Below are positions 8,358 to 29,253 of a stretch of 64,000 bases of DNA, piece by piece. The notes beneath the pieces are model-generated. The model saw only the letters and a program-made list of their open reading frames with translations. It did not search any database and was not told the DNA's origin. The stretch's first letter is position 1, and every line of letters starts with the position of its first letter. This DNA is from Anaerolineae bacterium (GTDB lineage Bacteria; Chloroflexota; Anaerolineae; B4-G1; DUEL01). Both the position numbers and the translations under genes were made by a program. Where the stretch lies: assembly GCA_016931695.1 (NCBI GenBank), contig JAFGEI010000159.1, positions 18,608 through 82,607 on the forward strand. Reading direction: 5' to 3'.

Positions 8358-9854
8358 TTACTCTTCCCATCCGGCAGTTTTCAAGGCCAGCATTGCCCCT
8401 AACAGGGCATGGCCCTGTTCCAGCCCAAACGCTTCGTCGACGAGCAGGCGGGTCACCGTCCCCTTTTGCTCAAAGCCGGGCAGGCTGGCGACCACGCGCT
8501 CAAAGTCGGCAACTTGATTGGCGGCATAGTCCATGTACCCGCCTTTGCTCGCCCCCAGGTCCCAGGCGACGTCAATCGACGGGCCTCTCTTGCCCTTTGG
8601 CGCTGCCAGCACGACCAGGTTGAAGCGGTGGGATTGAATCCCGGCCTCGCCAAACTGGTGCTCGCGGGTCTGGAACTTGAGGTAGATGCGGCCGGGGCGC
8701 ATGCACTGGACGATGCCCCCGGCCTGGCCCCAACCGTCGACCAGCAGTGCGTAAAGCTGTTGCACGTGGGGCTCGCACACCAGCAGGGTCTCGTGGATGT
8801 TTGCTCGCGTCTTGGGGCCCACCTGGGACTCGAGCTGGGGCAGGCTCGGGCCCCAGACCGGGGGAGGCTCTGGCTCGGGCTCCCGCGCTTTTTTGGCCAG
8901 ATTGTCCAGGGCGTGCACGAGCTTGCGCGCGCTCTCGCGGGTAAACGTTTCCGTGACCTCAATGTGGACTGTGCTCTCGGTGATCTTGAGCGGACCGATC
9001 CGGGAGACTGCTGCCTGGAAACGGTCGACATCTTTGTCGGAGAACATGCCCCGCTTTCGCAGCCCCTCCCAGCCAAGGACGATGATCTGCCGCCCCTTGC
9101 CGCTCCCCGGGCGCATGCCGCCCAGGCTGTAAGAGGTGGAACCCACTGCGATCCTGAGCCCAACGCCGCTCGTCCCGGCCTCGACGATATGCCCTGCTTT
9201 CTGCCAGCGCTCCATCAGGTAGCTCAGGATTTCTCGCCCGTGCTTGTCGCAGGCGCTCAGCACGGCGATAATGACCCGGGCATCTTGCGGCGTTACCTGG
9301 ATGTTGGGCAGCTTGGACAGGGGAAGTGGCGCCCGTCGCAGAAATGCCATCAAGGCCGTCTGCAACCATTCGTCATAATGATCGGCTACCATCATGACGG
9401 AGCGGATTGCGTCGTCCACTTCCACGTCGTCTAGGCCCCGGATGGGGCGGACCAGGCTGACGTGAACGCTGCCTTCGTAGATGGACAGGCGGGCAGCCAT
9501 CGTGTCGAGGTGGTTGAGCTCTAGTAGCAGCCGGTAAAAGTTGTGGATTCCTGGCGTGTTGGGTGGGGGCATCTTGAGGATAGGGGCAGAGACGACGAGG
9601 TAGTGGACCCCCGGTTGCCACTCGACCAGGCCGGCAACGCCGATGACCGAGCCTAGAAAGATGTGCCGCCAGCCGCCGCGGCTGGTCAGTTCTGCCGGGT
9701 CCATGCCGTAGCTGCGGAGCACGTCGTCGATGAGGGCGTACGCGACGTCGGGGGTCATTTTGGCTGCTTTCTTTTGCCAGGGCAAGTGTCTGGCTGTGTC
9801 AAGCGTCCGTATCCGTCCGTTGCCGCCATTTCCGCCATTCCCGTCGTTTGCCAT
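8358..9854 (-). CDS. hypothetical protein; YbjN-like N-terminal domain plus an internally duplicated uncharacterised domain
   Basis: The N-terminal ~170 aa resemble the YbjN/T3SS-chaperone-like fold family (weak call, by eye). Two ~120-aa segments share a W..AG..V...G..L...VL....I.V.W pattern. Confidence 0.45.
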   Translation of the reverse strand: MANDGNGGNGGNGRIRTLDTARHLPWQKKAAKMTPDVAYALIDDVLRSYGMDPAELTSRGGWRHIFLGSVIGVAGLVEWQPGVHYLVVSAPILKMPPPNTPGIHNFYRLLLELNHLDTMAARLSIYEGSVHVSLVRPIRGLDDVEVDDAIRSVMMVADHYDEWLQTALMAFLRRAPLPLSKLPNIQVTPQDARVIIAVLSACDKHGREILSYLMERWQKAGHIVEAGTSGVGLRIAVGSTSYSLGGMRPGSGKGRQIIVLGWEGLRKRGMFSDKDVDRFQAAVSRIGPLKITESTVHIEVTETFTRESARKLVHALDNLAKKAREPEPEPPPVWGPSLPQLESQVGPKTRANIHETLLVCEPHVQQLYALLVDGWGQAGGIVQCMRPGRIYLKFQTREHQFGEAGIQSHRFNLVVLAAPKGKRGPSIDVAWDLGASKGGYMDYAANQVADFERVVASLPGFEQKGTVTRLLVDEAFGLEQGHALLGAMLALKTAGWEE

Positions 9855-11395: not shown

Positions 11396-12280
11396 TCAAC
11401 TGCCGCGCGGCCCGACCAGCCCGGCCCCCACGGCCAGCCCCTGCATCTCGCGCGTGATCTCCTGGCGGCGGGCATCCTGCACTGCCATCGTCATTTCTTC
11501 GACCAGGCGCTCGGTGTTTTTCGTCGCTCCGTCCATGATCTGGTAGCGCGTGGACTGCTCGGCTGCGGCCGAGTCGAGCAGCAGGCCGTAGAGGCCCGTC
11601 GCGGCCCACTGCTCGACGATCCGTGCATAGATGCGCAGCGGGTCGGTTTCGATGATCGGCGGCGGCCAGGCTGCACCGGTCGCCGGCGCGGCTTCCAGGC
11701 GAGGGGGGATCAGGCGGGTTACCTGCGGCGCATAGCGGCCTGGGCCTTGATAGTGGTTGTGGATGATGTCGACCGCGTCCACCTCGTGGGCCTCGTACTG
11801 CATCAGCCAGCGGCGGGCCAGTTCAAAAGCCAACTGCAGCGGGGGGAGGGAGGTGGTGGGGAGCGGCGCGCTCCAGGCCGGCGGATGCCCGTCCCGGCGC
11901 AACAGGCGCGCCGCGCGGCTGCCCAAGGCCGCCAGCTCCAGCGGCCCGGCAGCGGGCTGGCTGACCAGGTAGCCCATTGCATATTCGACGACGGCCTCGT
12001 TGAAGCGGCCGCAGAGACCGCGCTCGCTGCCCACTACCATAATCACGCGCTGCGCCGGCGGGCGCGCCCGGCGCGGCCGCTGCGCTGCGCCCTGTGCCTG
12101 CAGGGTGGGCAGCAGCGGCGGCAGCATGCCGAGTAGCCGATCGCTGTAACGGCGCAGGTTGCTGGCCTGGCGCAGCGCAGCCTGCCAGCTGCCCAGCGAA
12201 ATCGTGCGCAGCGCACCGAGGATCGGTTCTACAGCACGGATATTGTCCAGGCGTTCCCGCACGCGCTCCAGGTCTTCCAC
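11396..12280 (-). CDS. atpG: N-type ATP synthase gamma subunit
   Basis: Last gene of the atpDCQRBEFAG array. N-terminal L..V..RL.NIR....I..A.R.IS helix and C-terminal ITREMQGL helix are typical of gamma. The GTG start overlaps the upstream TAG by 1 nt. Confidence 0.8.
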   Translation of the reverse strand: MEDLERVRERLDNIRAVEPILGALRTISLGSWQAALRQASNLRRYSDRLLGMLPPLLPTLQAQGAAQRPRRARPPAQRVIMVVGSERGLCGRFNEAVVEYAMGYLVSQPAAGPLELAALGSRAARLLRRDGHPPAWSAPLPTTSLPPLQLAFELARRWLMQYEAHEVDAVDIIHNHYQGPGRYAPQVTRLIPPRLEAAPATGAAWPPPIIETDPLRIYARIVEQWAATGLYGLLLDSAAAEQSTRYQIMDGATKNTERLVEEMTMAVQDARRQEITREMQGLAVGAGLVGPRGS

Positions 12281-12612
12281 TAATATACCTCCGCGCGCTC
12301 CAGCGGCCAGACAAAGACCACCGCGCTACCTAGCTGTTCCTTTCTCGACACGTTGTGTGACAGGGGTAAGGGAAACGCCTCGCTCTCTCCTGTGCTTGCC
12401 TCGACGCGAATGTGCGTATGGCAGTTTTGGCGGATGATCCCCAACACCTGGTCCACGTCTCGCTTCTTGGTGGCGATAAAGAGCGTATATTGGGCCTGGC
12501 GCAGCATGCCGCCGCGGCTCTCGGTAAACGTCGCCGTAAAGCCAGCGGTAACCAGGGCGTCCAGGACGCCATCGGCTTCGTCTCGCGAGATGACTGCCAT
12601 CACCATTTTCAT
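12280..12612 (-). CDS. PII-like signal-transduction protein of the DarA/PstA (DUF970, cyclic-di-AMP receptor) family
   Basis: MKMVMAVISRDEADGVLDALVTAGFTATFTESRGGMLRQAQYTLFIATKK...GSAVVFVWPLERAEVY parallels, from memory, B. subtilis DarA ([50 protein letters not shown]...GGATVFVLPVDEF). Its ATG overlaps the atpA stop (ATGA at 12609-12612). Confidence 0.75.
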   Translation of the reverse strand: MKMVMAVISRDEADGVLDALVTAGFTATFTESRGGMLRQAQYTLFIATKKRDVDQVLGIIRQNCHTHIRVEASTGESEAFPLPLSHNVSRKEQLGSAVVFVWPLERAEVY

Positions 12613-14300
12613 GGTTCCTTGCTCCTTTTGTTCCCGTTGCGGCGGTGCCATTGCTGGTGAAAGTCGGCGATGGCCGCCAGCAGTGACGTGTGCAGTTCGT
12701 CGGACATTTCGCACGTGCGGTCGAGTTGGTAGCAAAATGCGAGGTGGTTGCGCTCGAGGAAGGTGTACAACTCTTGCTCGTAGCGCGGCACGTCCGCCAC
12801 GTCCACGTCGTCGAGAAAGCCTTGTGTTGCCGACAGCAGCACGGCGATCTGCTGGTCCAGCGAAAGCGGCTGGTGAGCGGGCTGGCCGAGCGCGGCCTGC
12901 AGGCGCTGCCCGCGCCGGATTTGGTGCCGGGTTGCTTCGTCAACGTCCGCGCCAAAGCGGGCAAAAGCGGCAACTTCCTCGTATTGCGCCATCTCCAGGC
13001 GCAGCGGGCCTGACACGGCGCGCATGGCGTGTGTCTGCGCTGCGCCGCCGACCCGCGAGACCGAGCGGCCGACGTTGACCGCCGGTTTGATCCCCCGGTT
13101 GAAAAGCGCGCTGTCGAGCACGATCTGGCCGTCGGTGATCGAGATCAGGTTGGTGGGGATGTAGGCCGACACGTTGCCGCGCTGCGTTTCGATGATCGGC
13201 AGCGCGGTCAGCGAGCCCCCGCCAGACGCCTCGTTTAGCTTGCATGCCCGCTCCAGCAGCCGGGCGTGCAGGTAAAAGATGTCGCCAGGATAGGCCTCGC
13301 GCCCCGGCGTCCGGCGTAGCAGGAGGCTCAACTCGCGGTAGGCGTCAGCGTGCTTGGTCAGATCGTCATAGACGATCATCACGTCCCGCCCCTCCCGGGT
13401 CAGAAACTCGGCCATCGTGCAGCCGGCGTAGGGCGCCAGGTAGCGCAGCGCAGGCGGGTCGTTGGGACTGGCCATCACGACGATCGTGTGTGCCAGCGCC
13501 TCGTTGCGGCGCAGCGTTTCGATCACGGCGAGGACGGTCGATTTTTTCTGGCCGACGGCGACATAGACACATGCGACCCCGCTGTCACGCTGGCTGAGAA
13601 TGGCGTCGACAGCCATCGTCGTCTTGCCGCTCTGCCGGTCGCCGAGGATCAGCTCGCGCTGCCCGCGGCCAATCGGCACCAGCGCATCAATCACCTTGGA
13701 GCCGGTGTGCAGCGGTTCGTTGACCGGTGTACGACTGACGATGCCCGGTGCTTCTTGCTCCAGGTAGTCAAATGCAGCCGCCTCGACTGACCCGCGGTTG
13801 TCCAGGGGCCTGCCCAGCGGGTTGACCACCCGTCCCAGCAGCAGGTGGCCTACCGGCACTTGCAGGCGCTCCCCGGTGGCTACCACCAGGTCGCCGCCCT
13901 GGATGCCCTCCTCGCTGTCGAGCAAGATCACGTCGACCTGGGTGTGGTCGAGGTTGAGCACCATTCCCTGGGCGCCGGTGGGGAAAGTGACCAGCTCCTC
14001 GGTGCGCGCGCGGGGCAGGCCGGAGAGCGTCGCGACCCCCTCGCCGATGTGCTGCACCGTACCGACGTCGAGAAGGCGCACGCCTGGTTCGATCTGCTGC
14101 ACCTGGCGGCGCAGCTCGTCCGACAGGTAGTTGATGGTGAAGCGGGCGCGATGTAGACCGGGGAGCGCGGCGATGGTGCGGCTGAGGTGGCGAACCAGGT
14201 CGGCCGCCGGGAGGCGGCCCTGGCGGTCGATGCCCTCTGTCTGCTCGTGCAGCTCGCGCAGCAGCAGGGCGACGTCGGGTCGCCGGGAGCGTTCAGGCAT
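12609..14300 (-). CDS. atpA: N-type ATP synthase alpha subunit
   Basis: Walker A GDRQSGKTTMAVD and alpha-type C-terminal domain. About 60-aa N-terminal extension relative to typical alpha. The start overlaps the atpF stop by 8 nt. Confidence 0.9.
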   Translation of the reverse strand: MPERSRRPDVALLLRELHEQTEGIDRQGRLPAADLVRHLSRTIAALPGLHRARFTINYLSDELRRQVQQIEPGVRLLDVGTVQHIGEGVATLSGLPRARTEELVTFPTGAQGMVLNLDHTQVDVILLDSEEGIQGGDLVVATGERLQVPVGHLLLGRVVNPLGRPLDNRGSVEAAAFDYLEQEAPGIVSRTPVNEPLHTGSKVIDALVPIGRGQRELILGDRQSGKTTMAVDAILSQRDSGVACVYVAVGQKKSTVLAVIETLRRNEALAHTIVVMASPNDPPALRYLAPYAGCTMAEFLTREGRDVMIVYDDLTKHADAYRELSLLLRRTPGREAYPGDIFYLHARLLERACKLNEASGGGSLTALPIIETQRGNVSAYIPTNLISITDGQIVLDSALFNRGIKPAVNVGRSVSRVGGAAQTHAMRAVSGPLRLEMAQYEEVAAFARFGADVDEATRHQIRRGQRLQAALGQPAHQPLSLDQQIAVLLSATQGFLDDVDVADVPRYEQELYTFLERNHLAFCYQLDRTCEMSDELHTSLLAAIADFHQQWHRRNGNKRSKEP

Positions 14301-15075
14301 TGGCTATCCGTTCCTTGAGTGCCTGGAGCACGCTCTCGCGCAGCTCGGCCATTCGCCCGCCGATCGAGTTGTCGACGAGCATGTCGCCCAGGCGGACGCG
14401 GGCCCCGGCCACCAGCTTGGGATCGATCTCGAGCTCCAGGTTTACGTGATGATCGGCCAGCGCGGTAAAAGTCCGCGCCAGCTGGCCTTGCTGCTCCGGC
14501 GAGAGGGGGAGCACGGTGGTCACGTAGGCTATCGGGGTTCGCTCGCCCATCGAGCGGCGGAACGCCTCCACGCGCTGGATCTCGCCGCGCCCCAGCTCCC
14601 AGATTCTCTCGTTGATCTGCTCGATCAGCGCCTTGTGCAGGTCGGGGGGGACGGTGCGCGTCACCAGTTGCCCGCTGATTTCCAGTATGGCATCCAATAA
14701 CACCTGGTAAAAGCTGTCCATTTCCTGTTGTTGCAGGCGGATGGCATCGCTGTGGGCCTCGACCAGGACGCGCTCGGCCTCGGCGCGGGCGGCCTGCAAA
14801 AGATCGGCGTGCTCCAGATCCGCGTTTTTGTACGCCTGGGCCAGGATCGCATTTACTTCCTGGTCCAGGTTGGACAGGCGCGCTTCCAGCTCCTCGCGCA
14901 TGCGGATGGCCTCCAGGCGCTCTTGCTCGACCTCTTGCATGATCCGCTCCTTCTCTGCCGCCCGTTCTTGTACCTTTTTCATGACCGGACGGAAGAGGAG
15001 GTAGTACAGCAGAATGCTCAGGACGATGAAATTAAAGAGCTCGAAGAGAATTGTGGCGGCATCCAAATCCAGCAT
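14293..15075 (-). CDS. atpF: N-type ATP synthase b subunit with delta/OSCP-like C-terminal domain
   Basis: N-terminal TM helix FNFIVLSILLYYLLF followed by a long charged coiled coil. The C-terminal ~90 aa (DPKLVAGARVRLGDMLVDNSIGGRMAEL) look like the delta C-terminal domain. No separate atpH gene is present. Confidence 0.75.
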   Translation of the reverse strand: MLDLDAATILFELFNFIVLSILLYYLLFRPVMKKVQERAAEKERIMQEVEQERLEAIRMREELEARLSNLDQEVNAILAQAYKNADLEHADLLQAARAEAERVLVEAHSDAIRLQQQEMDSFYQVLLDAILEISGQLVTRTVPPDLHKALIEQINERIWELGRGEIQRVEAFRRSMGERTPIAYVTTVLPLSPEQQGQLARTFTALADHHVNLELEIDPKLVAGARVRLGDMLVDNSIGGRMAELRESVLQALKERIANA

Positions 15076-15084
15076 CGCTGACCC

Positions 15085-15357
15085 CTAGAAGAAACGGTCG
15101 AGCAGCGGGTTGGCAAAGATGAGGATCAGGATAATCAGCAGCACGTAAATTGCCGTCGATTCGAGCAGGGCCATGGCAATCAGCAGCGTCGTGCGCAGGT
15201 TGCCGGCGACCTCGGGCTGGCGTGTCATGCCCTCCAGCGCCCGCACCACTGCCCGTCCCTCGGCCAGGGCCGGGGTAATCGTTCCCACGACAATGCTGAC
15301 GCCAGCGACGAGGATGGTTACGATGGTGACCAAAGTGCCTGGGTCCATTTCTGTCAT
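15085..15357 (-). CDS. atpE: N-type ATP synthase c subunit (ion-binding E33 / E66-S67-T68 / Y71)
   Basis: 90-aa two-helix hairpin with an RQPE loop. Helix 2 LLESTAIYVLL matches the Ilyobacter Na+-site pattern ESTxIY. The start is taken at MTEMDPG (15357); the longer track ORF runs into the palindromic element. Confidence 0.85.
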   Translation of the reverse strand: MTEMDPGTLVTIVTILVAGVSIVVGTITPALAEGRAVVRALEGMTRQPEVAGNLRTTLLIAMALLESTAIYVLLIILILIFANPLLDRFF

Positions 15358-15558: not shown

Positions 15559-16230
15559 TTACTGTTCGTCCCGTTCAACCGCCTTGATGGCAGCGGCGAT
15601 ATATACCGCGGCGAGCGCGGTGAAAATATAGGCTTGCAGGAGGCCGGTGAACATGCTAAAGCCGACCAGCGGCAACGGCACCAGGAGCGGTACCAGGGCA
15701 AAGATGACCGCGACAATCATCTCTGTGCTGATGATATTGCCAAAAAGGCGCAAGGTGAGTGACAGGGTACGACTCAGCTGGCCAATGATCTCTAGGGGCA
15801 GAACATAGATTGGCGAGGCCAGCTCTTTCAGATAGCCGCGCAGCCCGTACGAGCGGATGCCGAAATAGTGAACGGAGAAAAAGACGGCCAGGGCCAAGGC
15901 CAGCGGCGTGTTGATGTCACGCGTCGGTGAGACGAGAAAGGGGATGACGCCGACGAGGTTGGCCGCGGCAATAAAGATGGCCATGGCGCCGAGAAAGGGC
16001 AGGTAGGTGGCAGCGGGACGGTTCATCACGCTGGAGACGAGATCGTTCAGGAAATCAGCCAGCATCTCGAGCGCCATTGGCCGCCGGCGGCCAACGATCG
16101 CTGCTACGACGACGATCAGCGCCATCATCGCCCACGTCGAGACGACCGTGTCCCGCACCGGGATGCCGAAAAGGGTAAAGGCTACTTGTGGGAAAATGTC
16201 GTCCACGAGAACTCTCCTGAACCGAACCAT
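15559..16230 (-). CDS. atpB: N-type ATP synthase a subunit
   Basis: Polytopic membrane protein with the a-subunit signature LSLTLRLFGNIISTEM (conserved stator Arg). The start is estimated at MVRFRR (16230); the upstream part of the 301-aa ORF is Pro/Arg/Gly-rich and overlaps atpR. Confidence 0.75.
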   Translation of the reverse strand: MVRFRRVLVDDIFPQVAFTLFGIPVRDTVVSTWAMMALIVVVAAIVGRRRPMALEMLADFLNDLVSSVMNRPAATYLPFLGAMAIFIAAANLVGVIPFLVSPTRDINTPLALALAVFFSVHYFGIRSYGLRGYLKELASPIYVLPLEIIGQLSRTLSLTLRLFGNIISTEMIVAVIFALVPLLVPLPLVGFSMFTGLLQAYIFTALAAVYIAAAIKAVERDEQ

Positions 16231-16472
16231 GCGACGCCAAGCGAACGGGCCAGCCACAGGCCCAGGAAGGCGGACAGCCCCGGCAGGATGCCGCGCTGCA
16301 GCGCCAGGCTCAGCACCAGGGCGGCCAGTCCCCAGCGCAGCACGGCTCCGCCCCACACTAGGGCCCTGGCGCGCCAGTGGCCTGTCTGCGGGTCCAGCCG
16401 CCGGACAGTCCAGGCCAGGTGCAGCAGGTTGGCCGCGCCAGCGGCCAGTCCTACCCATAGCCATACGATCAC
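16182..16472 (-). CDS. atpR: N-ATPase AtpR subunit (small membrane protein)
   Basis: 96-aa protein with 2-3 TM helices in the position diagnostic of N-ATPase operons (between atpQ and atpB). 4-nt overlap with atpQ. Confidence 0.6.
   Translation of the reverse strand: MIVWLWVGLAAGAANLLHLAWTVRRLDPQTGHWRARALVWGGAVLRWGLAALVLSLALQRGILPGLSAFLGLWLARSLGVAWFGSGEFSWTTFSHK

Positions 16473-16733: not shown

Positions 16734-16753
<20 letters not shown>
16469..16753 (-). CDS. atpQ: AtpQ / AtpI(AtpZ)-like small membrane subunit
   Basis: LGWDLALPIFGGVLLGYYVDRWLGT...GLLMGGIGIGFYN is the typical two-helix AtpZ/AtpI-family pattern. Lies between atpC and atpR. Confidence 0.7.
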
Positions 16754-18531
<1,778 letters not shown>

Positions 18532-18782: not shown

Positions 18783-18959
18783 CCGCGACCATCGTCGGCT
18801 TTGGCCCGGCAGGCAGCGAGTGCAGTGGCCGGCGCAGTGATGTAGCCGCTGGAAGTATAGCCGAAAGCGACAAAAAAGTCAAAGTGAGGGCCAATTTTGA
18901 GTGCATGTCAAGCTCCGGTGGGACGGACACGCCGGTGATGTGCGAAGGAAAAGAGATTT

Positions 18960-20248: not shown

Positions 20249-22036
<1,788 letters not shown>

Positions 22037-22127
22037 GTTGGTTAGCCGTCAGGCACGTTGTTGAAAACGAGTCGGCAGTAAATGCGGAATTGTCTGCTGC
22101 CTGCCAGGTCACATATCGAAGGAGGTA

Positions 22128-22469
22128 ATGGTAATGGAGAAGGTGGTACTTGACGTACCGACCCTCTGGGCGGATCATCACGTGCTCAAGGTGCGCGAGG
22201 CGCTGCTTCCGCTGGAGGGGGTGAAGGATGTATATGCCAGTTCGGCCTGGAAAAAGGTCTTGGTCTCTTATGATCCCGGAAAGGTCAATGTGGCGGCGCT
22301 TGAAAAGGCGCTGGCTGACGCCAACTATCCGGTCGGCGAGGGCAAAATGCCCATGTTGGTGCAGCCCACCGAAAAGCGCCGCGATCCGGCCTGGGCGGAG
22401 ATGGCCTATCGGGTCACCGAGACCAACAGGGTCGATCTCGAGATGTCGGGCGAGTTCCGACGATACTAA
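22128..22469 (+). CDS. HMA (heavy-metal-associated)-fold-like small protein lacking the CxxC site
   Basis: A beta-alpha-beta-beta-alpha-beta pattern VVLDVPTLWADHHVLKVREALLPLEGVKDVYASSAWKKVLVSYDPGKVNVAALEKALADANY, with W-A-D-H-H where HMA domains carry M-x-C-x-x-C. The start may be 22134. Confidence 0.45.
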   Translation: MVMEKVVLDVPTLWADHHVLKVREALLPLEGVKDVYASSAWKKVLVSYDPGKVNVAALEKALADANYPVGEGKMPMLVQPTEKRRDPAWAEMAYRVTETNRVDLEMSGEFRRY

Positions 22470-22484
22470 TGAGGAGTCTGAGAT

Positions 22485-24479
22485 ATGGCAAAGAAAGAAC
22501 GAACACCTGAAGAGTCCAGCCGGGACGAGGCTGCGATTCGTCTGCTAGAACATGCCTGTGCCATCGAGGTGGAAACCGCTTTTACCCGCGCCGACGCGAT
22601 CGCTGCCTGCAATATCGGCAGCCAAGGCTTGTGCTGCAAGAATTGCTCTATGGGCCCGTGCCGGCTGGTTGGCAAGACCGTGCGCGGCGTCTGCGGCGCC
22701 ACGATAGCAACGGTTGCCGCGCGCAACTTTGCCCGCGCCGTGGCGGCAGGTGCGTCGGCTCACTCGGACCATGGCCGTGGCCTGGCGTACACGCTGTTGG
22801 AGGCGGCTGAGGGCAAGGCGCCGGACTATGTGGTGCGCGATCCGGTCAAGCTAAACGAGATGGCGCGCTACCTGGGCGTCAAGACTGCTGATCGCAGTAT
22901 TGAAGAGATTGCCAAGGACGTCGCGCTGGCGTCGCTGACCGAGTTCGGCAAAGTAGAAGGCACAGTGTCCTACTTGAAGCGCGCGCCGGTCAAGCGCCAG
23001 AAAATCTGGCAAGAGCAAGGTATCGAGCCCCGCAGCATCGACCGGGAAATCGTCGAGATGCTGCACCGCACCCACATCGGCAACGACCAGGACGCCGAGC
23101 ACATCCTGGACCAGGCCCTGCGCTGTGCCCTGGGCGATGGATGGGGTGGGTCGATGCTGGCCACGGATCTGAGCGACGTGCTCTTTGGCACGCCCGCTCC
23201 CGTACGTTCCGGGGCAAACCTGGGCATCCTGAACAACAACAAGGTCAACATTGTCGTTCACGGTCACGAGCCGACGCTCTCCGAGATGATTGTAGCGGCC
23301 TCGCTGGACCCCGAGCTGATCGAGTACGCCAGGAGCAAGGGCGCTGATGGCATCCAGTTGTCCGGCATTTGCTGCACGGCCAACGAAACGCTGATGCGCC
23401 AGGGGGTGCCGCTGGCAGGGAACTTTTTGCAGCAAGAGCTGGCAATCCTCACCGGCGCGGTCGAAGCGATGGTGGTGGACATCCAGTGCATCATGCAGGG
23501 CATCGTGCCCGTGGCGGAAAGGTACCACACCGAGATCATTACCACCTCGCCCAAGGTCAAGATCACCGGCGCGACGCACATCGAGTTCGAGGAGCACCGG
23601 GCGCTCGAGATCGCCAAGGAGATTGTCCGCCGGGCCATCGATCACTTCCCGGAACGCGGGGAGATGATCGTGCCAGACGTACAGGCATCGGTGGTGCCGG
23701 GCTTTTCCCACGAGTACATCACCTACGCGTTGGGCGGCTTCTATCGCGGCTCGCTGCGCCCTCTGAACGACGCCATTGCTGCGGGCCGCATCCGCGGCGT
23801 GGTGGCCAATATCGGCTGCAACAACGCCCGTGTCTGCCACGACGAGTTGTTCCGCTACGTGGCTACCGAGTTCCTCAAGAATGACGTGCTGTTGGTCGAG
23901 ACCGGATGCGGGGCCATCGCCAGCGCCAAGCAAGGCTACATGACCCCCGAAGCGGCGCTGGAAGTCGCCGGCCCCGGCCTGCGCGAGGTCTGCGAGACGG
24001 TGGGCATCCCGCCGGTGCTGCACCTGGGCTCGTGCGTCGACAACTCGCGTATCCTGACGGTGCTGGCGCAGATGGCGACAGAGGGCGGCCTGGGCCAGGA
24101 TATTGCGGACATCCCCGCTGTCGGTATGGCGCCCGAGTGGATGAGCGAAAAGGCGATTTCGATTGCCACTTACTGCGTGGCTTCCGGGGCATATGTCATC
24201 ATGGGCGGCAGTACCGGCCCCGTTTCGGGCAGCGAAGAAGTGCTGCATATCCTGAGCGAGGTCTGGGAGAGCAAGATCGGCGGTCGGCTCGAGTTTGTGG
24301 TCGAAGGCGAAGAGATTGTGCGCCGCTCGTTGGAGCACATCGACAAGAAACGCGCTGCGTTGGGCCTGCCCGAGTACGATGCGTCCAAGTGGGGCAAGAG
24401 TGGCGACTGGCGCATGCCGGAATTGCTCGAGTTGCCCTTTGAGAAGCAGATCGAAGCGGTCTATGGCGTGAATCGCTGA
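22485..24479 (+). CDS. cooS: anaerobic Ni-Fe carbon-monoxide dehydrogenase catalytic subunit
   Basis: N-terminal B/D-cluster cysteines (CNIGSQGLCCKNCSMGPCR, GVCGA). C-cluster-region motifs (HGHEP, GICCTANE, GCNNAR, LGSCVDNSR). 664 aa. Confidence 0.95.
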   Translation: MAKKERTPEESSRDEAAIRLLEHACAIEVETAFTRADAIAACNIGSQGLCCKNCSMGPCRLVGKTVRGVCGATIATVAARNFARAVAAGASAHSDHGRGLAYTLLEAAEGKAPDYVVRDPVKLNEMARYLGVKTADRSIEEIAKDVALASLTEFGKVEGTVSYLKRAPVKRQKIWQEQGIEPRSIDREIVEMLHRTHIGNDQDAEHILDQALRCALGDGWGGSMLATDLSDVLFGTPAPVRSGANLGILNNNKVNIVVHGHEPTLSEMIVAASLDPELIEYARSKGADGIQLSGICCTANETLMRQGVPLAGNFLQQELAILTGAVEAMVVDIQCIMQGIVPVAERYHTEIITTSPKVKITGATHIEFEEHRALEIAKEIVRRAIDHFPERGEMIVPDVQASVVPGFSHEYITYALGGFYRGSLRPLNDAIAAGRIRGVVANIGCNNARVCHDELFRYVATEFLKNDVLLVETGCGAIASAKQGYMTPEAALEVAGPGLREVCETVGIPPVLHLGSCVDNSRILTVLAQMATEGGLGQDIADIPAVGMAPEWMSEKAISIATYCVASGAYVIMGGSTGPVSGSEEVLHILSEVWESKIGGRLEFVVEGEEIVRRSLEHIDKKRAALGLPEYDASKWGKSGDWRMPELLELPFEKQIEAVYGVNR

Positions 24480-24506
24480 TCGCGATAGCAATTCAAGAAA
24501 GAGAGG

Positions 24507-26783
24507 TTGAACGATATGTCACGATATATAGCTACACGAGCGATCCGCGGCTCCAACGCCCTCGTCGCCGAAGCTGAAGCCCTGTTGAAGCAAGCAGTCG
24601 AGGAGAAGGGGGCCGACACACCTGTCGCGTTCCCCAACACGGCCTATTTCCTGCCGGTGACGTTTGGCATGCTCGCCCACGAGGTGAATACCCTGGGCGA
24701 CCTGGAGTTTTCGCTGGCGCACGCCAAGAAACTGCTGCATCCTCTGCCGGAGGACAACCTGTGGGTGCCCTACCTGGGCGAGACCCTCGACTCGGGCATG
24801 GCCACGCTCCTGGCGGCCGAAGCGATCGAGGGCGTCCGCTTTGCCTATGGCGAGGAGCCGACGCTTTATCCCGGTTTGGAACTGGCGGGGAGCACGAGTT
24901 ATCCCCAGCTGAACGGCACAGGCCACCTCAACGGCCCCATCGACGACATCCAGCTCCGCTCCTGGGGTATCCAGCTGGTAGACGGCCGTATGCCCGGCTT
25001 TGCCGCACTCGTCGGCGCGGCGCACTCGAACGAGGCCGCCGTCGCCATCGTCCGCGAGTTGCAGCGGCGCAACATCCTCACTTTCCTCTGCGGCAACACC
25101 AACGGCCGTTCGGTCATCGACCAGCTGCACGAGGAAGGGGTAGAGATGGGCTATGATACCTATATCGTCCCCTTTGGCACGGACACCATCTCGGCCATCT
25201 ACCCCCTGGGCTTTGCCACCCGCTCGGCACTGACCTTTGGCGGCCTCAAGGCCGGCCAGTGGCGCGACATTCTCATCTACAACAAGTTCCGCGTCTTTGC
25301 CTTTGTCCTGGCCTTGGGCGAGGTCGACGATCTCAAGTACGCCGCGGCAGCGGGGGCCATTTCCTACGGCTTCCCGACCATCGCCGACACGGTCATCCCC
25401 GAGATTCTGCCCACCGGCGTCACCCGCTACGAACACGTCATCTCGATGCCGTGGAACGAGATCGAGGCCGAGACCGAGGAGGAACGGGCGGCCAAGATGG
25501 TACAGCGGGCGATCGAGGTGCGCGGGGTCAAGGTCAAGATCACCGAGGTGCCGGTCCCGGTGGCCTACGGCTCCGCCTTTGAGGGCGAGGTTGTGCGCCG
25601 CGCCGACATGCGGGCCGAGTTTGGCGGCAAGAACAGCCGCGCCTTCGAGTATCTGCTCATGGCGCCTATGGATGAGGTCGAAGACGGCAAGATCGAGCTC
25701 ATCGGCCCCGGCCTCGACACGCTCGATGAAGGCGGGTCGATGGACTTGGCTCTCGTCGTCGAGGTAGCCGGGCGCAAGATGCAGGAAGACTTTGAGCCGG
25801 TCCTGGAGCGGCAGTTTCACTACTTTATCAACGGCGCTTCCGGCATCCAGCACATCGGCCAGCGCGACATCACCTGGATCCGCATCTCCAAGGCCGCGGC
25901 GGAAAAAGGCTTTGACCTCAAGCACTTTGGCGACATTCTCTATGCTCGCTTCCACGCCGACTTTGGCGCGATCGTCGACAAGCTCCAGATCAAGATCATC
26001 ACCGACCCGGACCTGCACGCCGAGTGGCTGGCCAAGGCCCGCGAGGCCTACGATTTTCGTAACCGCCGCTTGGCCGACCTGACCGACGATGCAGTGGACA
26101 CGTTCTACTCGTGCATTCTTTGCCAGTCGTTTGCCCCCACCCACGTCTGCGTGGTCAGCCCGCAGCGGTTGGGGCTCTGCGGCGCCTACAACTGGCTCGA
26201 CTGCAAGGCTTCTTACGAGATCAACCCCACGGGGCCGAATCAGCCGATTCAGAAAGGCCAGTGCCTTGACGACGATAAAGGCTACTTTGCCGGCGTCAAC
26301 GAGTATGCCAAGATGGCCTCGCAGGGCACGGTGGAAGAGGTGACCATGTACTCGATCATGGAGAACCCCATGACCGCCTGCGGCTGTTTCGAGTGCATCG
26401 TTATGGTCATCCCCGAGGCCAACGGCGTGATGGTCGTCAGCCGTGAGGACCCGAGCATGACCCCGGCCGGTATGACGTTTTCCACCCTGGCCGGCATCGC
26501 CGGCGGCGGCCTGCAGACCCCGGGTATCATGGGCGTGGGCAAGTTTTACCTGACCAGCCCCAAGTTCGTCTCGGCCGACGGTGGGTTCAAGCGGATTGTT
26601 TGGATGTCGTCCTTCCTCAAGGAGACGATGGCCGAGGAATTCAAGCAGGTCGCCGAGCGCGAGGGCGACCCCGACCTGATCGCCAAGATCGCGGACGAAA
26701 CGATCTGCACCGACGTCGAGGGGTTGCTGGCGTATCTGGAGAGCGTCGGACATCCCGCCTTGACCATGGACATGATGTTCTAA
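24507..26783 (+). CDS. acsB: CO-methylating acetyl-CoA synthase (ACS alpha / CdhC-type)
   Basis: A-cluster motifs CILCQSFAPTHVCVVSPQRLGLCGA and MTACGCFECI (Cys-Gly-Cys). 758 aa, directly after cooS. The start may be ATG 24516. Confidence 0.95.
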   Translation: MNDMSRYIATRAIRGSNALVAEAEALLKQAVEEKGADTPVAFPNTAYFLPVTFGMLAHEVNTLGDLEFSLAHAKKLLHPLPEDNLWVPYLGETLDSGMATLLAAEAIEGVRFAYGEEPTLYPGLELAGSTSYPQLNGTGHLNGPIDDIQLRSWGIQLVDGRMPGFAALVGAAHSNEAAVAIVRELQRRNILTFLCGNTNGRSVIDQLHEEGVEMGYDTYIVPFGTDTISAIYPLGFATRSALTFGGLKAGQWRDILIYNKFRVFAFVLALGEVDDLKYAAAAGAISYGFPTIADTVIPEILPTGVTRYEHVISMPWNEIEAETEEERAAKMVQRAIEVRGVKVKITEVPVPVAYGSAFEGEVVRRADMRAEFGGKNSRAFEYLLMAPMDEVEDGKIELIGPGLDTLDEGGSMDLALVVEVAGRKMQEDFEPVLERQFHYFINGASGIQHIGQRDITWIRISKAAAEKGFDLKHFGDILYARFHADFGAIVDKLQIKIITDPDLHAEWLAKAREAYDFRNRRLADLTDDAVDTFYSCILCQSFAPTHVCVVSPQRLGLCGAYNWLDCKASYEINPTGPNQPIQKGQCLDDDKGYFAGVNEYAKMASQGTVEEVTMYSIMENPMTACGCFECIVMVIPEANGVMVVSREDPSMTPAGMTFSTLAGIAGGGLQTPGIMGVGKFYLTSPKFVSADGGFKRIVWMSSFLKETMAEEFKQVAEREGDPDLIAKIADETICTDVEGLLAYLESVGHPALTMDMMF

Positions 26784-26794
26784 GTGTGTTTCGC

Positions 26795-26833
26795 TTCACC
26801 CTCCCGCAGGTTTCAGCCCTGCGGGAGGGTGAA
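26795..26833 (+). other. 16-bp perfect intercistronic stem-loop (acsB-acsD spacer)
   Basis: TTCACCCTCCCGCAGG - TTTCAGC - CCTGCGGGAGGGTGAA. No downstream T-tract, so it is more likely an mRNA processing or stability element than a terminator. Confidence 0.4.
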
Positions 26834-26866
26834 AGGTAACACGTTTGATTAAGGAGGTAATTTCCT

Positions 26867-27829
26867 ATGACTGTAGAAATCCCTGTGGAGAAATGGTCGG
26901 GGAAAGTAATCGAAGTGGCTCTCGGAGCAACGGCGGAGGAAGGCGGCACGCGCACGCATGCGGTGACGGTGGGCGGACAGACAACTCTTCCCTTCCTGCA
27001 CTTTGAGGGCGCAATCCCCTACCCGCCGCGCATTGCGATCGAGATTTCTGATCAGCGCCCTGGCGACTGGTCGCCGCTTTTGCTTGAGGCCTGGGGAGAC
27101 GTGGTAAAGGACCCGGCGGCGTGGGCCAAGGCAGCCGAAGAAGCCGGTGCGGAGTTGATTCTCTTGCAGCTCAGCCTGACCAAGGATGGCGATACCCCGG
27201 TCACGGTGGCGGATGCCCAGGCGGTGACCCGCCAGGTGCTGGATGCCACCGGGCTGCCGCTCATCGTCTTTGGTCCGGGGCAGGTCGATGCGGACAACGA
27301 GCTGCTGGTGGCGGTCGCCGAGGAGGCGTCAGGCGAGCGGCTCTTGCTGGGCATTTGCGAGGAAAAGAACTATCGCACCATCGTTGCTGCCGCGCTGGCC
27401 CATAATCACCTGGTCACTGCGCGCACGGCAATGGACGTCAACCTGGCCAAGCAGCTGAACATTCTCATCTCGGACATGGGCCTGCCGCTCAACCGTATTG
27501 TGATGGACCCCACCTCGGCGGCCCTGGGGTATGGGATGGAGTATGGCTACTCGGTGATGGAGCGGCTGCGCATCGCGGCCCTGCAGGGTGACAAGATGAC
27601 CCAGTTGCCGATGCTGGTGACTGTCGGCTATGAGGCCTGGCGACAAAAAGAGTCCAAGGTCGGCGTGGGTGTGCCGGAAGCCTGGGGCGAGTGGGAGGAG
27701 CGTGCCATTCTCTGGGAAACGCTCACGACGACGACTTTGATCGAGTCGGGCGCCGATATTGTCATCATGCGCCATCCTGAAGCGGTCCGCCGCGCCAGGG
27801 TGTTCATCGATCGGTTGATGGGGAAATAG
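26867..27829 (+). CDS. acsD: corrinoid iron-sulfur protein small subunit (CdhD/AcsD)
   Basis: ~320-aa TIM-barrel-type protein between acsB and acsC. The MTVEIPVEKWSGKV N-terminus and overall pattern are typical of AcsD. The context is decisive. Confidence 0.85.
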   Translation: MTVEIPVEKWSGKVIEVALGATAEEGGTRTHAVTVGGQTTLPFLHFEGAIPYPPRIAIEISDQRPGDWSPLLLEAWGDVVKDPAAWAKAAEEAGAELILLQLSLTKDGDTPVTVADAQAVTRQVLDATGLPLIVFGPGQVDADNELLVAVAEEASGERLLLGICEEKNYRTIVAAALAHNHLVTARTAMDVNLAKQLNILISDMGLPLNRIVMDPTSAALGYGMEYGYSVMERLRIAALQGDKMTQLPMLVTVGYEAWRQKESKVGVGVPEAWGEWEERAILWETLTTTTLIESGADIVIMRHPEAVRRARVFIDRLMGK

Positions 27830-27840
27830 GAGGAGAAGCG

Positions 27841-29187
27841 ATGGCACTGACAGGGCTTCAGATTTACAAGTTGTTGCCGCAGACCAACTGCAAGGAGTGT
27901 GGCTATCCGACCTGCCTGGCCTTTGCCATGAAGCTGGCGGCCAAGCAGGCGGAACTGGCCGATTGCCCTTACGTCTCGGAAGAGGCCAAGGCGCAACTGG
28001 CCGCGGCAGCCGCGCCGCCGGTTCGCCTGGTGACTGTCGAAGGCCCAGGGCACAAGATCGAGGTGGGTAACGAGACCGTTCTCTTCCGCCACGAAAAGAC
28101 CTTTTTTCATCAACCGGGCCTCTTTGTGCGTGTGAAGGATACGACCCCGGTTGCAGAGATCAAGGCCGCGGTCGAAGCGGCGATGGGCTATGCCGTGGAG
28201 TATGTCGGTATGAGCCTGCACCTCGATGGGGTTGCCGTCGAGGCGGCCTCGGGTGACGCCGCGACGTTCAAAGCGGCCGTTGCTGCCGTGCTGGAAGTGA
28301 CGGATCGGGCACTGATTCTCATGGCTGCGGACGCCGCACTGCTCGAAACCGGCCTGTCTGCTACGAACGGCACCCGCCCGCTGCTCTACGCCGCCACTGC
28401 CGAGAACTGGGAGCCGGTCGCTGCGTTGGCCAAGGCCAAGAACTCGCCCCTCGTTGTGCGGGCCGATTCGCTGGACGAGATGGCTGAGCTGACTGAAAAG
28501 ATCAAGGGCGCTGGCGTGCAGGACATGGTACTCGATCCTGCCGTGCGGGGCCTGGCGGATACGCTGGTGACACTGACCCAGCTGCGCCGCCTGGCGCTCA
28601 AAAAGAACTTTCGCCCGTTGGGCTTTCCGCTCATCACTTTCCCGGGCGAAGTGGCGGAAGACTTGCTGGACGAGGCAGCTTTTGCCTCGCAGCACATTGC
28701 CAAGTATGGCGGCTTTATCGTCTTGGATCGCTTCACGCCGGCTTCGGCCTATGCACTGCTGGCGCTGCGGGCCAACATCTATACCAATCCGCAGGAACCG
28801 ATCAAGGTACAACCGGGTATCTATGAGATCAACGATCCCAAGCCAGCATCGCCGCTCATGGTCACCACCAACTTTTCCATCACCTACTTCTCGGTGGCCA
28901 ACGAGGTCGATGGCAGCGGGGTTCCCGGTTGGCTGTTGGTCGCTGACGCGGAGGGGATGAGTGTGCTCACCGCCTGGGCTGCTGGCAAGTTTGACGCCGA
29001 GCGCATTGCCAAGGCGGTCAAATCGACGGGAATCGAGGACAAGATCAGCCACAAAAAACTGGTCATCCCGGGCCACGTTTCCGTGCTCTTGGGTGAGCTG
29101 GAGGAGGAACTGCCGGGTTGGGAGATCCTGGTCGGGCCGCGCGAGGCGGTTGACCTGGCGGGCTTTCTCAAGCTGTGGAACGCGTAA
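27841..29187 (+). CDS. acsC: corrinoid iron-sulfur protein large subunit (CdhE/AcsC)
   Basis: N-terminal [4Fe-4S] motif LPQTNCKECGYPTCLAFAMKLA...CPYV. 448 aa. Confidence 0.9.
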   Translation: MALTGLQIYKLLPQTNCKECGYPTCLAFAMKLAAKQAELADCPYVSEEAKAQLAAAAAPPVRLVTVEGPGHKIEVGNETVLFRHEKTFFHQPGLFVRVKDTTPVAEIKAAVEAAMGYAVEYVGMSLHLDGVAVEAASGDAATFKAAVAAVLEVTDRALILMAADAALLETGLSATNGTRPLLYAATAENWEPVAALAKAKNSPLVVRADSLDEMAELTEKIKGAGVQDMVLDPAVRGLADTLVTLTQLRRLALKKNFRPLGFPLITFPGEVAEDLLDEAAFASQHIAKYGGFIVLDRFTPASAYALLALRANIYTNPQEPIKVQPGIYEINDPKPASPLMVTTNFSITYFSVANEVDGSGVPGWLLVADAEGMSVLTAWAAGKFDAERIAKAVKSTGIEDKISHKKLVIPGHVSVLLGELEEELPGWEILVGPREAVDLAGFLKLWNA

Positions 29188-29193
29188 CAAGTT

Positions 29194-29243
29194 GTTTCAG
29201 GTTTCAGGTTTGAGGTTGTCTCACCTGAAACCTGAAACCTTTT
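29194..29243 (+). terminator. 16-bp perfect hairpin plus T-run after acsC (partial terminator/attenuator candidate)
   Basis: GTTTCAGGTTTCAGGT (29194-29209), a 13-nt loop, ACCTGAAACCTGAAAC (29223-29238), then CTTTT. The left arm and the start of the loop contain three tandem heptamers: GTTTCAG, GTTTCAG, GTTTGAG. Confidence 0.45.
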
Positions 29244-29253
29244 AACTTTAAGG

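What the first reader, a model, noticed from the sequence alone, without database searches (positions are those of the whole stretch)
12280..12612. DarA/PstA-like PII protein (c-di-AMP receptor family) inserted between atpA and atpG of an N-ATPase operon
The canonical N-ATPase order is atpD-C-Q-R-B-E-F-A-G. Here a 110-aa PII-like gene with clear DarA-like N- and C-terminal signatures sits between A and G. It is overlapped at both ends (ATGA with the atpA stop; its TAG shares one nucleotide with the atpG GTG), so it is made stoichiometrically with the enzyme. c-di-AMP signalling is known to control K+ and osmolyte transport. A receptor hard-wired into an ion-pumping ATPase operon suggests direct second-messenger control of the pump, which I am not aware of being described.
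Basis: partly seen in the sequence, partly recalled or inferred. Interest (0 to 1): 0.65.

Follow-up and report, generated by a model that had tools for sequence, protein, structure and literature searches.

The report
PII-like regulator inside rotary ATPase operon
A small signalling protein of the DarA/PstA (PII-like) family is built into the operon of a sodium-type rotary ATPase throughout the bacterial class Anaerolineae, which suggests a previously undescribed nucleotide-sensing regulator of the pump, although its ligand pocket has changed and the ligand may not be c-di-AMP.

Summary
Window 12280-12612 (minus strand) encodes a 110-aa PF06153 (DarA/PstA) protein. It overlaps the atpA stop (ATGA) and the atpG start (TAGTG) in an atpD-C-Q-R-B-E-F-A-[PII]-G operon. 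The gene is not a one-off insertion. All 80 genome loci found with it (Anaerolineae MAGs) have it between atpA and atpG. In an independent search with the gamma subunit, 65 of 70 informative metagenome loci have it. The five exceptions lie in a sub-clade with duplicated atpA, and the two examined look like atpA1/atpA2 recombinants or assembly collapses. It is under purifying selection (dN/dS 0.15, like atpA). The "c-di-AMP receptor" reading is only partly supported. The fold and first-nucleotide pocket are kept. However, the two side chains shown by mutagenesis to matter in PstA are replaced subfamily-wide: Phe36 becomes Met/Val, and Asn41 becomes Gln in most and is Asn in none of 125. Arg33, Arg38 and Gln39 are fixed instead. 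A canonical DarA-like paralogue (GGFL..N intact) follows atpG of a second ATPase operon in the same genomes. My best reading is a nucleotide-sensing regulatory subunit of the ATPase. I found no description of this in the searchable literature. I rate it a new variant of a known kind, interest about 0.68.

The parts
12280..12612 (-). PII-like gene, DarA/PstA family (PF06153), divergent ATPase-embedded subfamily; 110 aa; T-loop ESRGGMLRQAQ
12609..14300 (-). atpA (alpha subunit, 563 aa, with about 50-aa N-terminal extension); its TGA overlaps the PII ATG
   Evidence: ATGA overlap conserved in most of 77 loci
11396..12280 (-). atpG (gamma subunit, 294 aa, GTG start sharing one base with the PII TAG)
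14293..15075 (-). atpF: long b subunit with a delta-like C-terminal domain (OSCP profile positions 104-171 only); no separate atpH
15085..15357 (-). atpE (c subunit, 90 aa) with Glu in both helices plus Ser/Thr/Tyr (N-ATPase-type Na+ ligand set)
   Evidence: ligand positions assigned from my recollection of the I. tartaricus c subunit
15559..16206 (-). atpB (a subunit); likely GTG start at 16206 behind AGGAGA
16182..16472 (-). AtpR/AtpI-like small membrane protein; three hydrophobic segments by eye; Arg46 and Arg76 are the only invariant residues
16469..16753 (-). atpQ (PF09527 ATPase_gene1, 55 bits)
16734..17108 (-). atpC (epsilon, 124 aa)
17101..18516 (-). atpD (beta subunit, 471 aa), first gene of the operon
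18854..18882 (-). promoter-like site TTGACT-17-TATACT upstream of atpD (consensus match only)

Best explanation
The gene encodes a PII-fold protein, presumably a trimer, of the DarA/PstA family. It belongs to a distinct subfamily that is a dedicated accessory or regulatory component of an N-type (AtpQ, AtpR-like, delta-less, two-Glu c-ring) rotary ATPase of Anaerolineae. It is co-translated with the alpha subunit. Three protomers per three alpha would give one trimer per F1. Inferred mechanism: like other PII-family proteins encoded next to their targets (GlnK-AmtB, PII-NrtC, PotN-PotABCD), it binds an adenine nucleotide in its inter-subunit clefts. Depending on ligand state, it docks on the ATPase and gates ATP hydrolysis and ion pumping. 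The ligand pocket has been remodelled relative to c-di-AMP-binding PstA, so the ligand may be ATP/ADP/AMP, or c-di-AMP bound in a different way. Shown: family, fold, operon position, coupling signals, class-wide conservation, purifying selection, pocket substitutions, and a canonical paralogue on a second ATPase operon. Inferred: trimer, direct binding to the ATPase, ligand identity, direction of regulation.
For: PF06153 hit and PstA/DarA-like fold. 80/80 genome loci and 65/70 informative gamma-anchored metagenome loci carry the gene between atpA and atpG. Its start overlaps the atpA stop in 68 of 77 loci (the 4-nt ATGA form is the median); the median gap to atpG is 9 nt. dN/dS is 0.15, against 0.17 for atpA, 0.23 for atpG and 0.19 for atpF. 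T28, G35 and W102 are invariant; L37, G95, Q39, F100, R38 and R33 are nearly invariant. A canonical DarA-like paralogue sits 14-138 nt after atpG of a second operon type (ACT-atpDCQBEFAG-DarA) in 5 of 5 close relatives looked up, and right after a type-1 atpG in L128. Both types occur in the same assemblies: JAFGFI01 (L044 and L168), and ENN99 locus tags (P0098 and P0305). PII-family proteins regulating transport ATPases are a known precedent (PMC10945777).
Against: There is no direct evidence of a physical interaction with the ATPase. Operon membership alone does not prove the target. No transcript evidence was obtained: the only metatranscriptome of the study gave only short matches at 90-99% likeness piled on conserved alpha/beta stretches and nothing over the PII gene, gamma or Fo genes. 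A few related contigs lack the gene, although the two examined look like recombinants between duplicated atpA copies. The ligand is unknown. The long loop (residues 65-94), which moves on ligand binding in PstA, is hypervariable here.
Confidence: 0.5

Rival explanations
1. One reading: it is a bona fide c-di-AMP receptor, and c-di-AMP directly controls the ion-pumping ATPase through it.
For: Family membership. Several PstA c-di-AMP contacts are kept: A27, T28, G34-G35, L37, G95, F100. Met can pack against adenine, and Gln can replace Asn as an H-bond partner. Canonical DarA-like paralogues in Anaerolineae suggest c-di-AMP signalling exists in the class. c-di-AMP governs K+/osmolyte homeostasis (PMC10636490), which fits a Na+-type pump.
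Against: Both side chains validated by mutagenesis are replaced. F36 is aromatic in only 2 of 125, and position 36 tolerates M/V/A/I/L. N41 is never Asn. Arg26 and the C-terminal His108 contact are also not kept. The protein scores 56.5 against a cutoff of 140 on the DarA equivalog model, whereas the canonical paralogues score 72-111 bits on PF06153 against 58 here. No diadenylate cyclase motif or c-di-AMP riboswitch was found in the sequence held, but that is uninformative.
Confidence: 0.22
2. It is a PII-like signal protein whose target lies elsewhere (an ion transporter, a metabolic enzyme or a transcription factor). It rides in the ATPase operon only so that its level tracks that of the ATPase.
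For: The first reported PstA target is a transcription factor, GlnR, not a membrane complex (PMC13484208). DarA's partner is unknown. Canonical paralogues are followed by varied genes: Nuo/Mrp-like, a permease-Usp fusion, H+-PPase.
Against: The position is internal, between two F1 genes, with a conserved ATGA overlap to atpA. It is kept over a whole class and in both arrangements of duplicated atpA. That is unusual for a mere passenger. A second paralogue is tied to a second ATPase operon.
Confidence: 0.17
3. It is a structural or assembly subunit that no longer signals. For example, it could cap the alpha3beta3 crown, where the delta N-terminal domain is missing, or chaperone F1 assembly.
For: The b subunit carries only the C-terminal half of delta (OSCP positions 104-171), and alpha has an N-terminal extension of about 50 aa. 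A trimer would match the three-fold symmetry of F1. Position 36 is relaxed, as expected if the second nucleotide site were lost.
Against: Classical N-ATPases lack delta without having this protein. Contigs without the gene keep the alpha extension (L081). The first-nucleotide pocket residues (A27, T28, G95, F100) and the Gly-Gly turn remain nearly invariant, which suggests a ligand is still bound.
Confidence: 0.1
4. It is a chance ORF or a decaying remnant.
For: None beyond its small size.
Against: 125 unique intact orthologues, dN/dS 0.15, a confident PII fold, and its own Shine-Dalgarno sequence.
Confidence: 0.01

Closest known systems
[quoted passage not shown]
   Same: Same Pfam family and fold. 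Short structured T-loop with a Gly-Gly turn. Long variable loop in place of the Walker-A-like B-loop of canonical PII. T28, A27, G95 and F100 pocket residues are kept.
   Different: About 27-31% identity. F36 becomes M/V. N41 is mostly Q and never N. R26 and H108 are not kept. R33, R38, Q39 and W102 are newly fixed. It lies below the DarA equivalog cutoff. It is embedded in an ATPase operon rather than standing alone.
Canonical DarA-like paralogue of Anaerolineae (type-2 operon: ACT-atpDCQBEFAG-DarA)
   Same: Same class of organisms, same family, also attached to a D-first, delta-less F/N-type ATPase operon.
   Different: It lies after atpG rather than between atpA and atpG. It keeps GGFL, N41 and mostly R26 (PF06153 72-111 bits). 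Its operon lacks the AtpR-like gene and has a Gln (not Glu) in helix 1 of subunit c.
PII-family regulators encoded with their transport targets: GlnK-AmtB, PII-NrtBCD, PotN-PotABCD, SbtB-SbtA
   Same: A small trimeric nucleotide sensor encoded beside a membrane transporter or transport ATPase and regulating it by direct binding (PMC10945777; PMC8654305, listed).
   Different: None of these targets is a rotary F/N-type ATPase. Those proteins belong to other PII subfamilies with known ligands.
N-ATPase (Dibrova et al. 2010), atpDCQRBEFAG
   Same: Gene order, AtpQ, a small two-Arg membrane protein, no atpH with a long b subunit, a two-Glu c subunit, and co-occurrence with other rotary ATPases in related genomes.
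   Different: The canonical operon has no gene between atpA and atpG. Here alpha and beta score as canonical F1 and fall below the NCBIfam alternate-F1F0 cutoffs. The small membrane protein matches AtpI (PF03899) at least as well as AtpR.
Small protein inhibitors of F-ATPase hydrolysis (epsilon C-terminal domain, zeta, IF1, cyanobacterial AtpTheta)
   Same: The proposed role is the same: preventing wasteful ATP hydrolysis according to energy state. AtpTheta is cited in PMC10117731; the others are from my own knowledge.
   Different: These are unrelated folds and not nucleotide-sensing PII proteins. The functional parallel is hypothetical.

Membership tests
PF06153 / DarA-PstA PII-like family | Sequence match to the family model above the curated cutoff | tested here: met
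   58 bits against GA 27, residues 1-106
PF06153 / DarA-PstA PII-like family | PII ferredoxin-like fold with a short T-loop and a long loop before the last strands | tested here: met
   AF2 pLDDT 82; top Foldseek hits 4rww, 3m05, 4d3h, 4rle
c-di-AMP receptor DarA (NCBIfam NF058593 equivalog) | Score above the equivalog cutoff | tested here: not met
   56.5 bits against a cutoff of 140
c-di-AMP receptor DarA/PstA | GGFL T-loop with Phe36 stacking the second adenine, and Asn41 binding the ribose (both validated by mutagenesis) | tested here: not met
   M36 and Q41 in the window protein. In 125 orthologues F36 occurs 2 times and N41 never. Other family representatives keep F in 89/99 and N in 81/99
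c-di-AMP receptor DarA/PstA | Binds c-di-AMP | not testable with these tools
   Needs DRaCALA or ITC
c-di-AMP receptor DarA/PstA | Host genome encodes a diadenylate cyclase | tested here: inconclusive
   No DAC motif in the 1.17 Mb of window plus genome loci scanned, and no ydaO riboswitch in 145 kb. Only operon neighbourhoods were held, so this is uninformative. Canonical DarA-like paralogues in the class are an indirect hint
N-ATPase (Dibrova 2010) | atpD-C-Q-R-B-E-F-A-G gene order | tested here: met
   one extra gene lies between A and G
N-ATPase | AtpR: three-TM protein with conserved Arg in two helices | tested here: inconclusive
   R46 and R76 are the only invariant residues in 23 orthologues. 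PF12966 scores 22.9 bits, below GA 26. 15/23 members match AtpR and 21/23 match AtpI PF03899
N-ATPase | No delta gene; long b subunit with a delta-like C-terminus | tested here: met
   260-aa b subunit with an OSCP hit at residues 182-248; the best NCBIfam hit is alt_F1F0_F0_B
N-ATPase | c subunit with a full Na+ ligand set including Glu in both helices | tested here: met
   E33 in 101/103, E66 in 103/103, S/T67 in 103/103, T68 in 94/103, Y71 in 103/103. Ligand positions were assigned by aligning to the I. tartaricus c subunit from memory
N-ATPase | Subunits cluster apart from canonical F-type (NCBIfam 'alternate F1F0' models) | tested here: not met
   alpha scores 635, below 750.5; beta scores 603, below 752. 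Both pass the canonical atpA and atpD equivalogs
N-ATPase | Present as an additional copy beside another rotary ATPase | tested here: inconclusive
   Not testable for the window's own genome: only one operon lies in the 64 kb. It is met in related assemblies: JAFGFI01 has L044 and L168, ENN99 has both, and L080 has two operons in tandem

The most novel reading that the evidence does not exclude
DarA-family PII-like proteins are dedicated regulators of rotary ATPases. In Anaerolineae two paralogues each serve one of two ATPase operons: a canonical, probably c-di-AMP-binding one after atpG, and a pocket-remodelled one between atpA and atpG. By extension, the F1Fo ATPase would be a conserved target of DarA/PstA. 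In Firmicutes that partner 'has escaped identification despite extensive efforts' (PMC10636490).
Probability: 0.15. Interest if true: 0.88.

Novelty: new variant of a known kind. Interest (0 to 1): 0.68.

Why it matters
PII-family proteins are among the most widespread signal processors, and several are known to plug or throttle transporters. None has been tied to a rotary ATPase. N-type ATPases themselves have no known regulator and an uncertain physiological role.

A class-wide, translationally coupled PII-like gene inside such an operon, plus a second paralogue on a second ATPase operon, gives a concrete and testable candidate. It could link cellular nucleotide or second-messenger state directly to ATP-driven ion pumping.

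It also offers a natural experiment on how a c-di-AMP pocket is rewired. A canonical and a remodelled paralogue sit in the same genome. Finally, it gives a new lead on the long-unresolved question of what DarA/PstA proteins act on.

Tried and rejected
- **Diadenylate cyclase motif.** A regex for the GTRHR-type motif over six-frame translations of the window and the 80 genome loci (1.17 Mb) gave only junk-frame matches. This is uninformative, because only operon neighbourhoods were held.
- **Rfam.** A scan of the window and four loci (145 kb) for a c-di-AMP riboswitch or anything else found nothing.
- **Transcription.** The source is a sediment metagenome. The single metatranscriptome of that study gave only short matches at 90-99% likeness piled on conserved alpha/beta stretches and nothing over the PII gene, gamma or Fo genes. 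No expression evidence was obtained.
- **Literature.** Ten full-text searches (N-ATPase+PII; DarA targets; atpR/atpQ; Anaerolineae+ATP synthase; DUF970/PF06153/YaaQ; PII-like+ATP synthase operon; DAC+Chloroflexi; COG3870; PotN; c-di-AMP+PII-like+ATP synthase) found no paper describing this association. The Selim & Alva 2024 review of PII-like proteins is not held.
- **Dispensability from secondary loss.** I considered this reading for the 5 PII-less contigs and weakened it. All five lie nearest the duplicated-atpA sub-clade. L081 and L096, the two examined, carry an atpA that is A1-like at the 5' end and A2-like at the 3' end. So these are recombination deletions or assembly collapses.
- **Gene fusions.** I looked for fusions of the PII domain with ATPase subunits and found none. 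P0173 is a chimera with an unrelated lyase-like sequence.
- **'Sole ATP synthase' idea.** I rejected it. Related assemblies hold a second F/N-type operon, and some also hold V-type genes.
- **Complex modelling.** Modelling the PII-ATPase complex was not possible with the single-chain predictor.

Full report
**Observation.** On the minus strand, an ATG at 12612 opens a 110-codon frame that ends with TAG at 12282-12280. The ATG overlaps the TGA of the upstream alpha-subunit gene (ATGA). The final G of the TAG is the first base of the GTG of the gamma-subunit gene. AAGGAG and GGAGG lie 9 and 7 nt upstream of the two starts. The longer 151-aa ORF from an upstream TTG is not the gene: all orthologues begin at MKMVMAV. 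The product matches Pfam PF06153 (CdAMP_rec) at 58 bits against a cutoff of 27, over its whole length. Its best PDB sequence matches are L. monocytogenes and S. aureus PstA and B. subtilis DarA. An AlphaFold2 model (pLDDT 82; beta-alpha-beta-beta-alpha-beta core, disordered loop 71-89) finds PstA and DarA first and canonical PII proteins next.

**The operon.** The genes read atpD (17101-18516), atpC, atpQ (PF09527, 55 bits), a 96-aa membrane protein, atpB, atpE, atpF, atpA, the PII-like gene and atpG. This is the N-ATPase order of Dibrova et al. (PMC2881411) with one extra gene.
- N-ATPase hallmarks that are met:
  - There is no atpH, and the 260-aa b subunit has a C-terminus matching only the C-terminal half of delta.
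  - The c subunit has Glu in both helices plus Ser/Thr/Tyr, conserved in 101-103 of 103 homologues.
- The small membrane protein is ambiguous. Its only invariant residues are two arginines in the second and third hydrophobic segments, the AtpR hallmark. However, its orthologues match the AtpI model (21/23) at least as often as the AtpR model (15/23).
- Alpha and beta pass the canonical F1 equivalog models and fall below the 'alternate F1F0' cutoffs.

I therefore call the enzyme N-type rather than a textbook N-ATPase. The window also carries a Wood-Ljungdahl gene cluster next door and comes from a sediment metagenome.

**Distribution.** A protein search returned 213 relatives, all PF06153. The few carrying an organism label are Chloroflexota or Anaerolineae MAGs.
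- Scanning one genome per species with the subfamily alignment gave 80 loci, labelled Anaerolineae, Anaerolineales, Thermoflexales, Brevefilum, Pelolinea and similar, apart from one Methanosarcinales-labelled bin (L054). In every one where the flanks are present, the gene lies between atpA and atpG of the same operon.
- To remove the ascertainment bias, I searched metagenome contigs with the gamma subunit instead. Of the 80 closest gamma relatives, 70 had enough upstream sequence, and 65 of those carry the gene.
- The five that lack it are all nearest to a sub-clade in which atpA is duplicated (A1-PII-A2-G or A1-A2-PII-G; the copies share 82-88% DNA identity). L081 and L096, the two examined, have an atpA that is A1-like at the 5' end and A2-like at the 3' end. 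L081's gamma is identical in amino-acid sequence (shared DNA 97.6% identical) to that of a PII-bearing contig. These are recombination deletions or assembly collapses, so they are weak evidence for dispensability.
- The gene's start overlaps the atpA stop in 68 of 77 loci (the 4-nt ATGA form is the median). The median gap to atpG is 9 nt.
- Pairwise dN/dS is 0.15, compared with 0.17 for atpA, 0.23 for atpG and 0.19 for atpF.

**Is it a c-di-AMP receptor?** Choi et al. (PMC4475381) list the PstA contacts: the G26-A27 peptide, T28, the main chain of G34-G35-F36-L37, the F36 ring stacking the second adenine, N41, G47, G94, T97, F99 and H108. F36A and especially N41A (Kd 140 uM) weaken binding.
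- In 125 unique, context-verified orthologues, several contacts are nearly invariant: A27, T28, G34, G35, L37, G95 and F100.
- Position 36 is M93/V22/A5/I2/F2/L1.
- Position 41 is Q109/K8/R4/W3/Y1 and is never Asn.
- T97 is Val. The positions equivalent to R26 and H108 are not kept.
- R33, R38, Q39 and W102 are fixed instead.
- Among the 150 best cluster representatives from a 1.84-billion-protein library, 43 have this T-loop (E[ST]RGG[MV]LRQ[AS]Q). The other 99 keep F36 (89/99) and N41 (81/99).
- The protein scores 56.5 against a cutoff of 140 on NCBI's DarA equivalog.

So the adenosine pocket shared with all PII proteins is conserved. The part specific to the second nucleotide of c-di-AMP has been rebuilt. 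c-di-AMP binding is possible but not predicted. ATP/ADP/AMP are equally plausible. As an ungapped positional coincidence, R38-Q39 match the nucleotide- and 2-oxoglutarate-binding R38-Q39 of canonical GlnB. That comparison is from my own recollection of the E. coli GlnB sequence and is not a test.

**A second paralogue on a second ATPase.** Three loci had another PF06153 gene nearby, with GGFL, N41 and mostly R26 intact and much higher family scores of 72-111 bits.
- Searching with one of them returned about 100 clusters at 65-92% identity; the handful carrying an organism label are Chloroflexi/Chloroflexota or Anaerolineae.
- In 5 of 5 look-ups, the gene lies 14-138 nt after atpG of a different operon: ACT-domain gene, atpD, C, Q, B, E, F (b+OSCP), A, G, DarA-like. 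That operon has no AtpR-like gene and has Gln rather than Glu in helix 1 of subunit c.
- A more distant relative (42% identity) stands alone.
- Both operon types occur in the same assemblies: JAFGFI01 (L044 and L168), and the ENN99 locus tags of P0098 and P0305. L080 has two operons in tandem. L164-L166 also show V-type genes upstream.

So the DarA family is attached to rotary ATPases twice over in this class, once in canonical form and once in remodelled form. This strengthens the inference that the ATPase is the target. It also suggests that c-di-AMP signalling exists in the class, while making it less likely that the window's paralogue reads the same signal in the same way.

**Mechanism.** By analogy with PII-family proteins encoded beside their targets (GlnK-AmtB, PII-NrtC, PotN-PotABCD; PMC10945777), I propose a presumably trimeric nucleotide sensor that docks on the ATPase and gates ATP hydrolysis and ion pumping. 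Coupling to atpA (three copies per enzyme) would give one trimer per F1.
- Shown: family, fold, position, coupling signals, conservation, selection and pocket changes.
- Inferred: trimer, binding to the enzyme, ligand and sign of regulation.
- Rivals: a true c-di-AMP receptor (0.22), a passenger with another target (0.17), a non-signalling structural or assembly subunit (0.10), and a spurious ORF (0.01).

**Novelty.** Ten full-text searches found no description of a PII-like or DarA-family gene in an ATP synthase or N-ATPase operon. A 2023 review states that DarA's partner has escaped identification (PMC10636490). A 2026 preprint names GlnR as the first PstA target in S. aureus (PMC13484208). 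One relevant review is not held, so prior mention cannot be excluded. I rate it a new variant of a known kind (a PII-type regulator wired to a transport machine, here a rotary ATPase), with interest 0.68.

Noticed in passing
L162-L168 (e.g. L164:2413-10330): A second operon type, ACT-domain gene-atpD-C-Q-B-E-F-A-G, is followed 14-138 nt later by a canonical DarA-like gene (GGFL..N intact). It is found in the same assemblies as the window-type operon.
   Followed up: partly
L014, L016, L036, L037, L082, L094, L101, L121-L123, L142: A sub-clade has two atpA paralogues in one operon, either flanking the PII gene (A1-PII-A2-G) or both before it. In the five loci examined, both copies are intact with a Walker A motif and share 82-88% DNA identity. 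This raises the possibility of mixed alpha hexamers and ongoing gene conversion.
   Followed up: partly
L081, L088, L089, L096, L114: These contigs lack the PII gene. In L081 and L096, the two examined, atpA looks like an A1/A2 hybrid. This is a recombination deletion or a short-read assembly collapse.
   Followed up: partly
window 20249-32860 (+), continuing to 63938: A Wood-Ljungdahl cluster (formate-THF ligase, CODH, ACS, CdhD, RACo, CooC-like ATPase) is followed by several Hdr/Mvh-like Fe-S flavoproteins. The organism looks like an anaerobe with the acetyl-CoA pathway.
   Followed up: partly
window 12609-14300 and 14293-15075 (-): The alpha subunit has an N-terminal extension of about 50 aa. 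The b subunit carries only the C-terminal half of delta, so what occupies the F1 crown is unclear.
   Followed up: no
L080:11928-19312: Two D-first ATPase operons lie in tandem. The second has no AtpR-like gene and no PF06153 gene, and is preceded by an ACT-domain gene.
   Followed up: partly
L164:1-1754, L165:1-1754, L166:1-202: V-type ATPase genes (A/B-like subunit in L164 and L165, and ATP-synt_D in all three) lie just upstream of the type-2 operon, and Nuo/Mrp-like antiporter genes lie downstream. Up to three rotary ATPases may occur per genome.
   Followed up: no
representatives P0145, P0150, P0152 and others: About 40 cluster representatives of 206-260 aa contain two tandem PF06153 domains, mostly with GGFL..N.
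   Followed up: no
L054: A contig binned as a Methanosarcinales archaeon (coverage 0.26) carries the Anaerolineae-type operon. It is probably a binning contaminant.
   Followed up: no
window 8358-9854 (-): A 498-aa ORF with high GC3 (0.79) has no Pfam match.
   Followed up: no
L128:2606-8055: A canonical DarA-like gene directly after a type-1 atpG is followed by a DedA/VTT protein, an amino-acid-permease-Usp fusion and an H+/Na+ pyrophosphatase. This is an ion-homeostasis neighbourhood.
   Followed up: no
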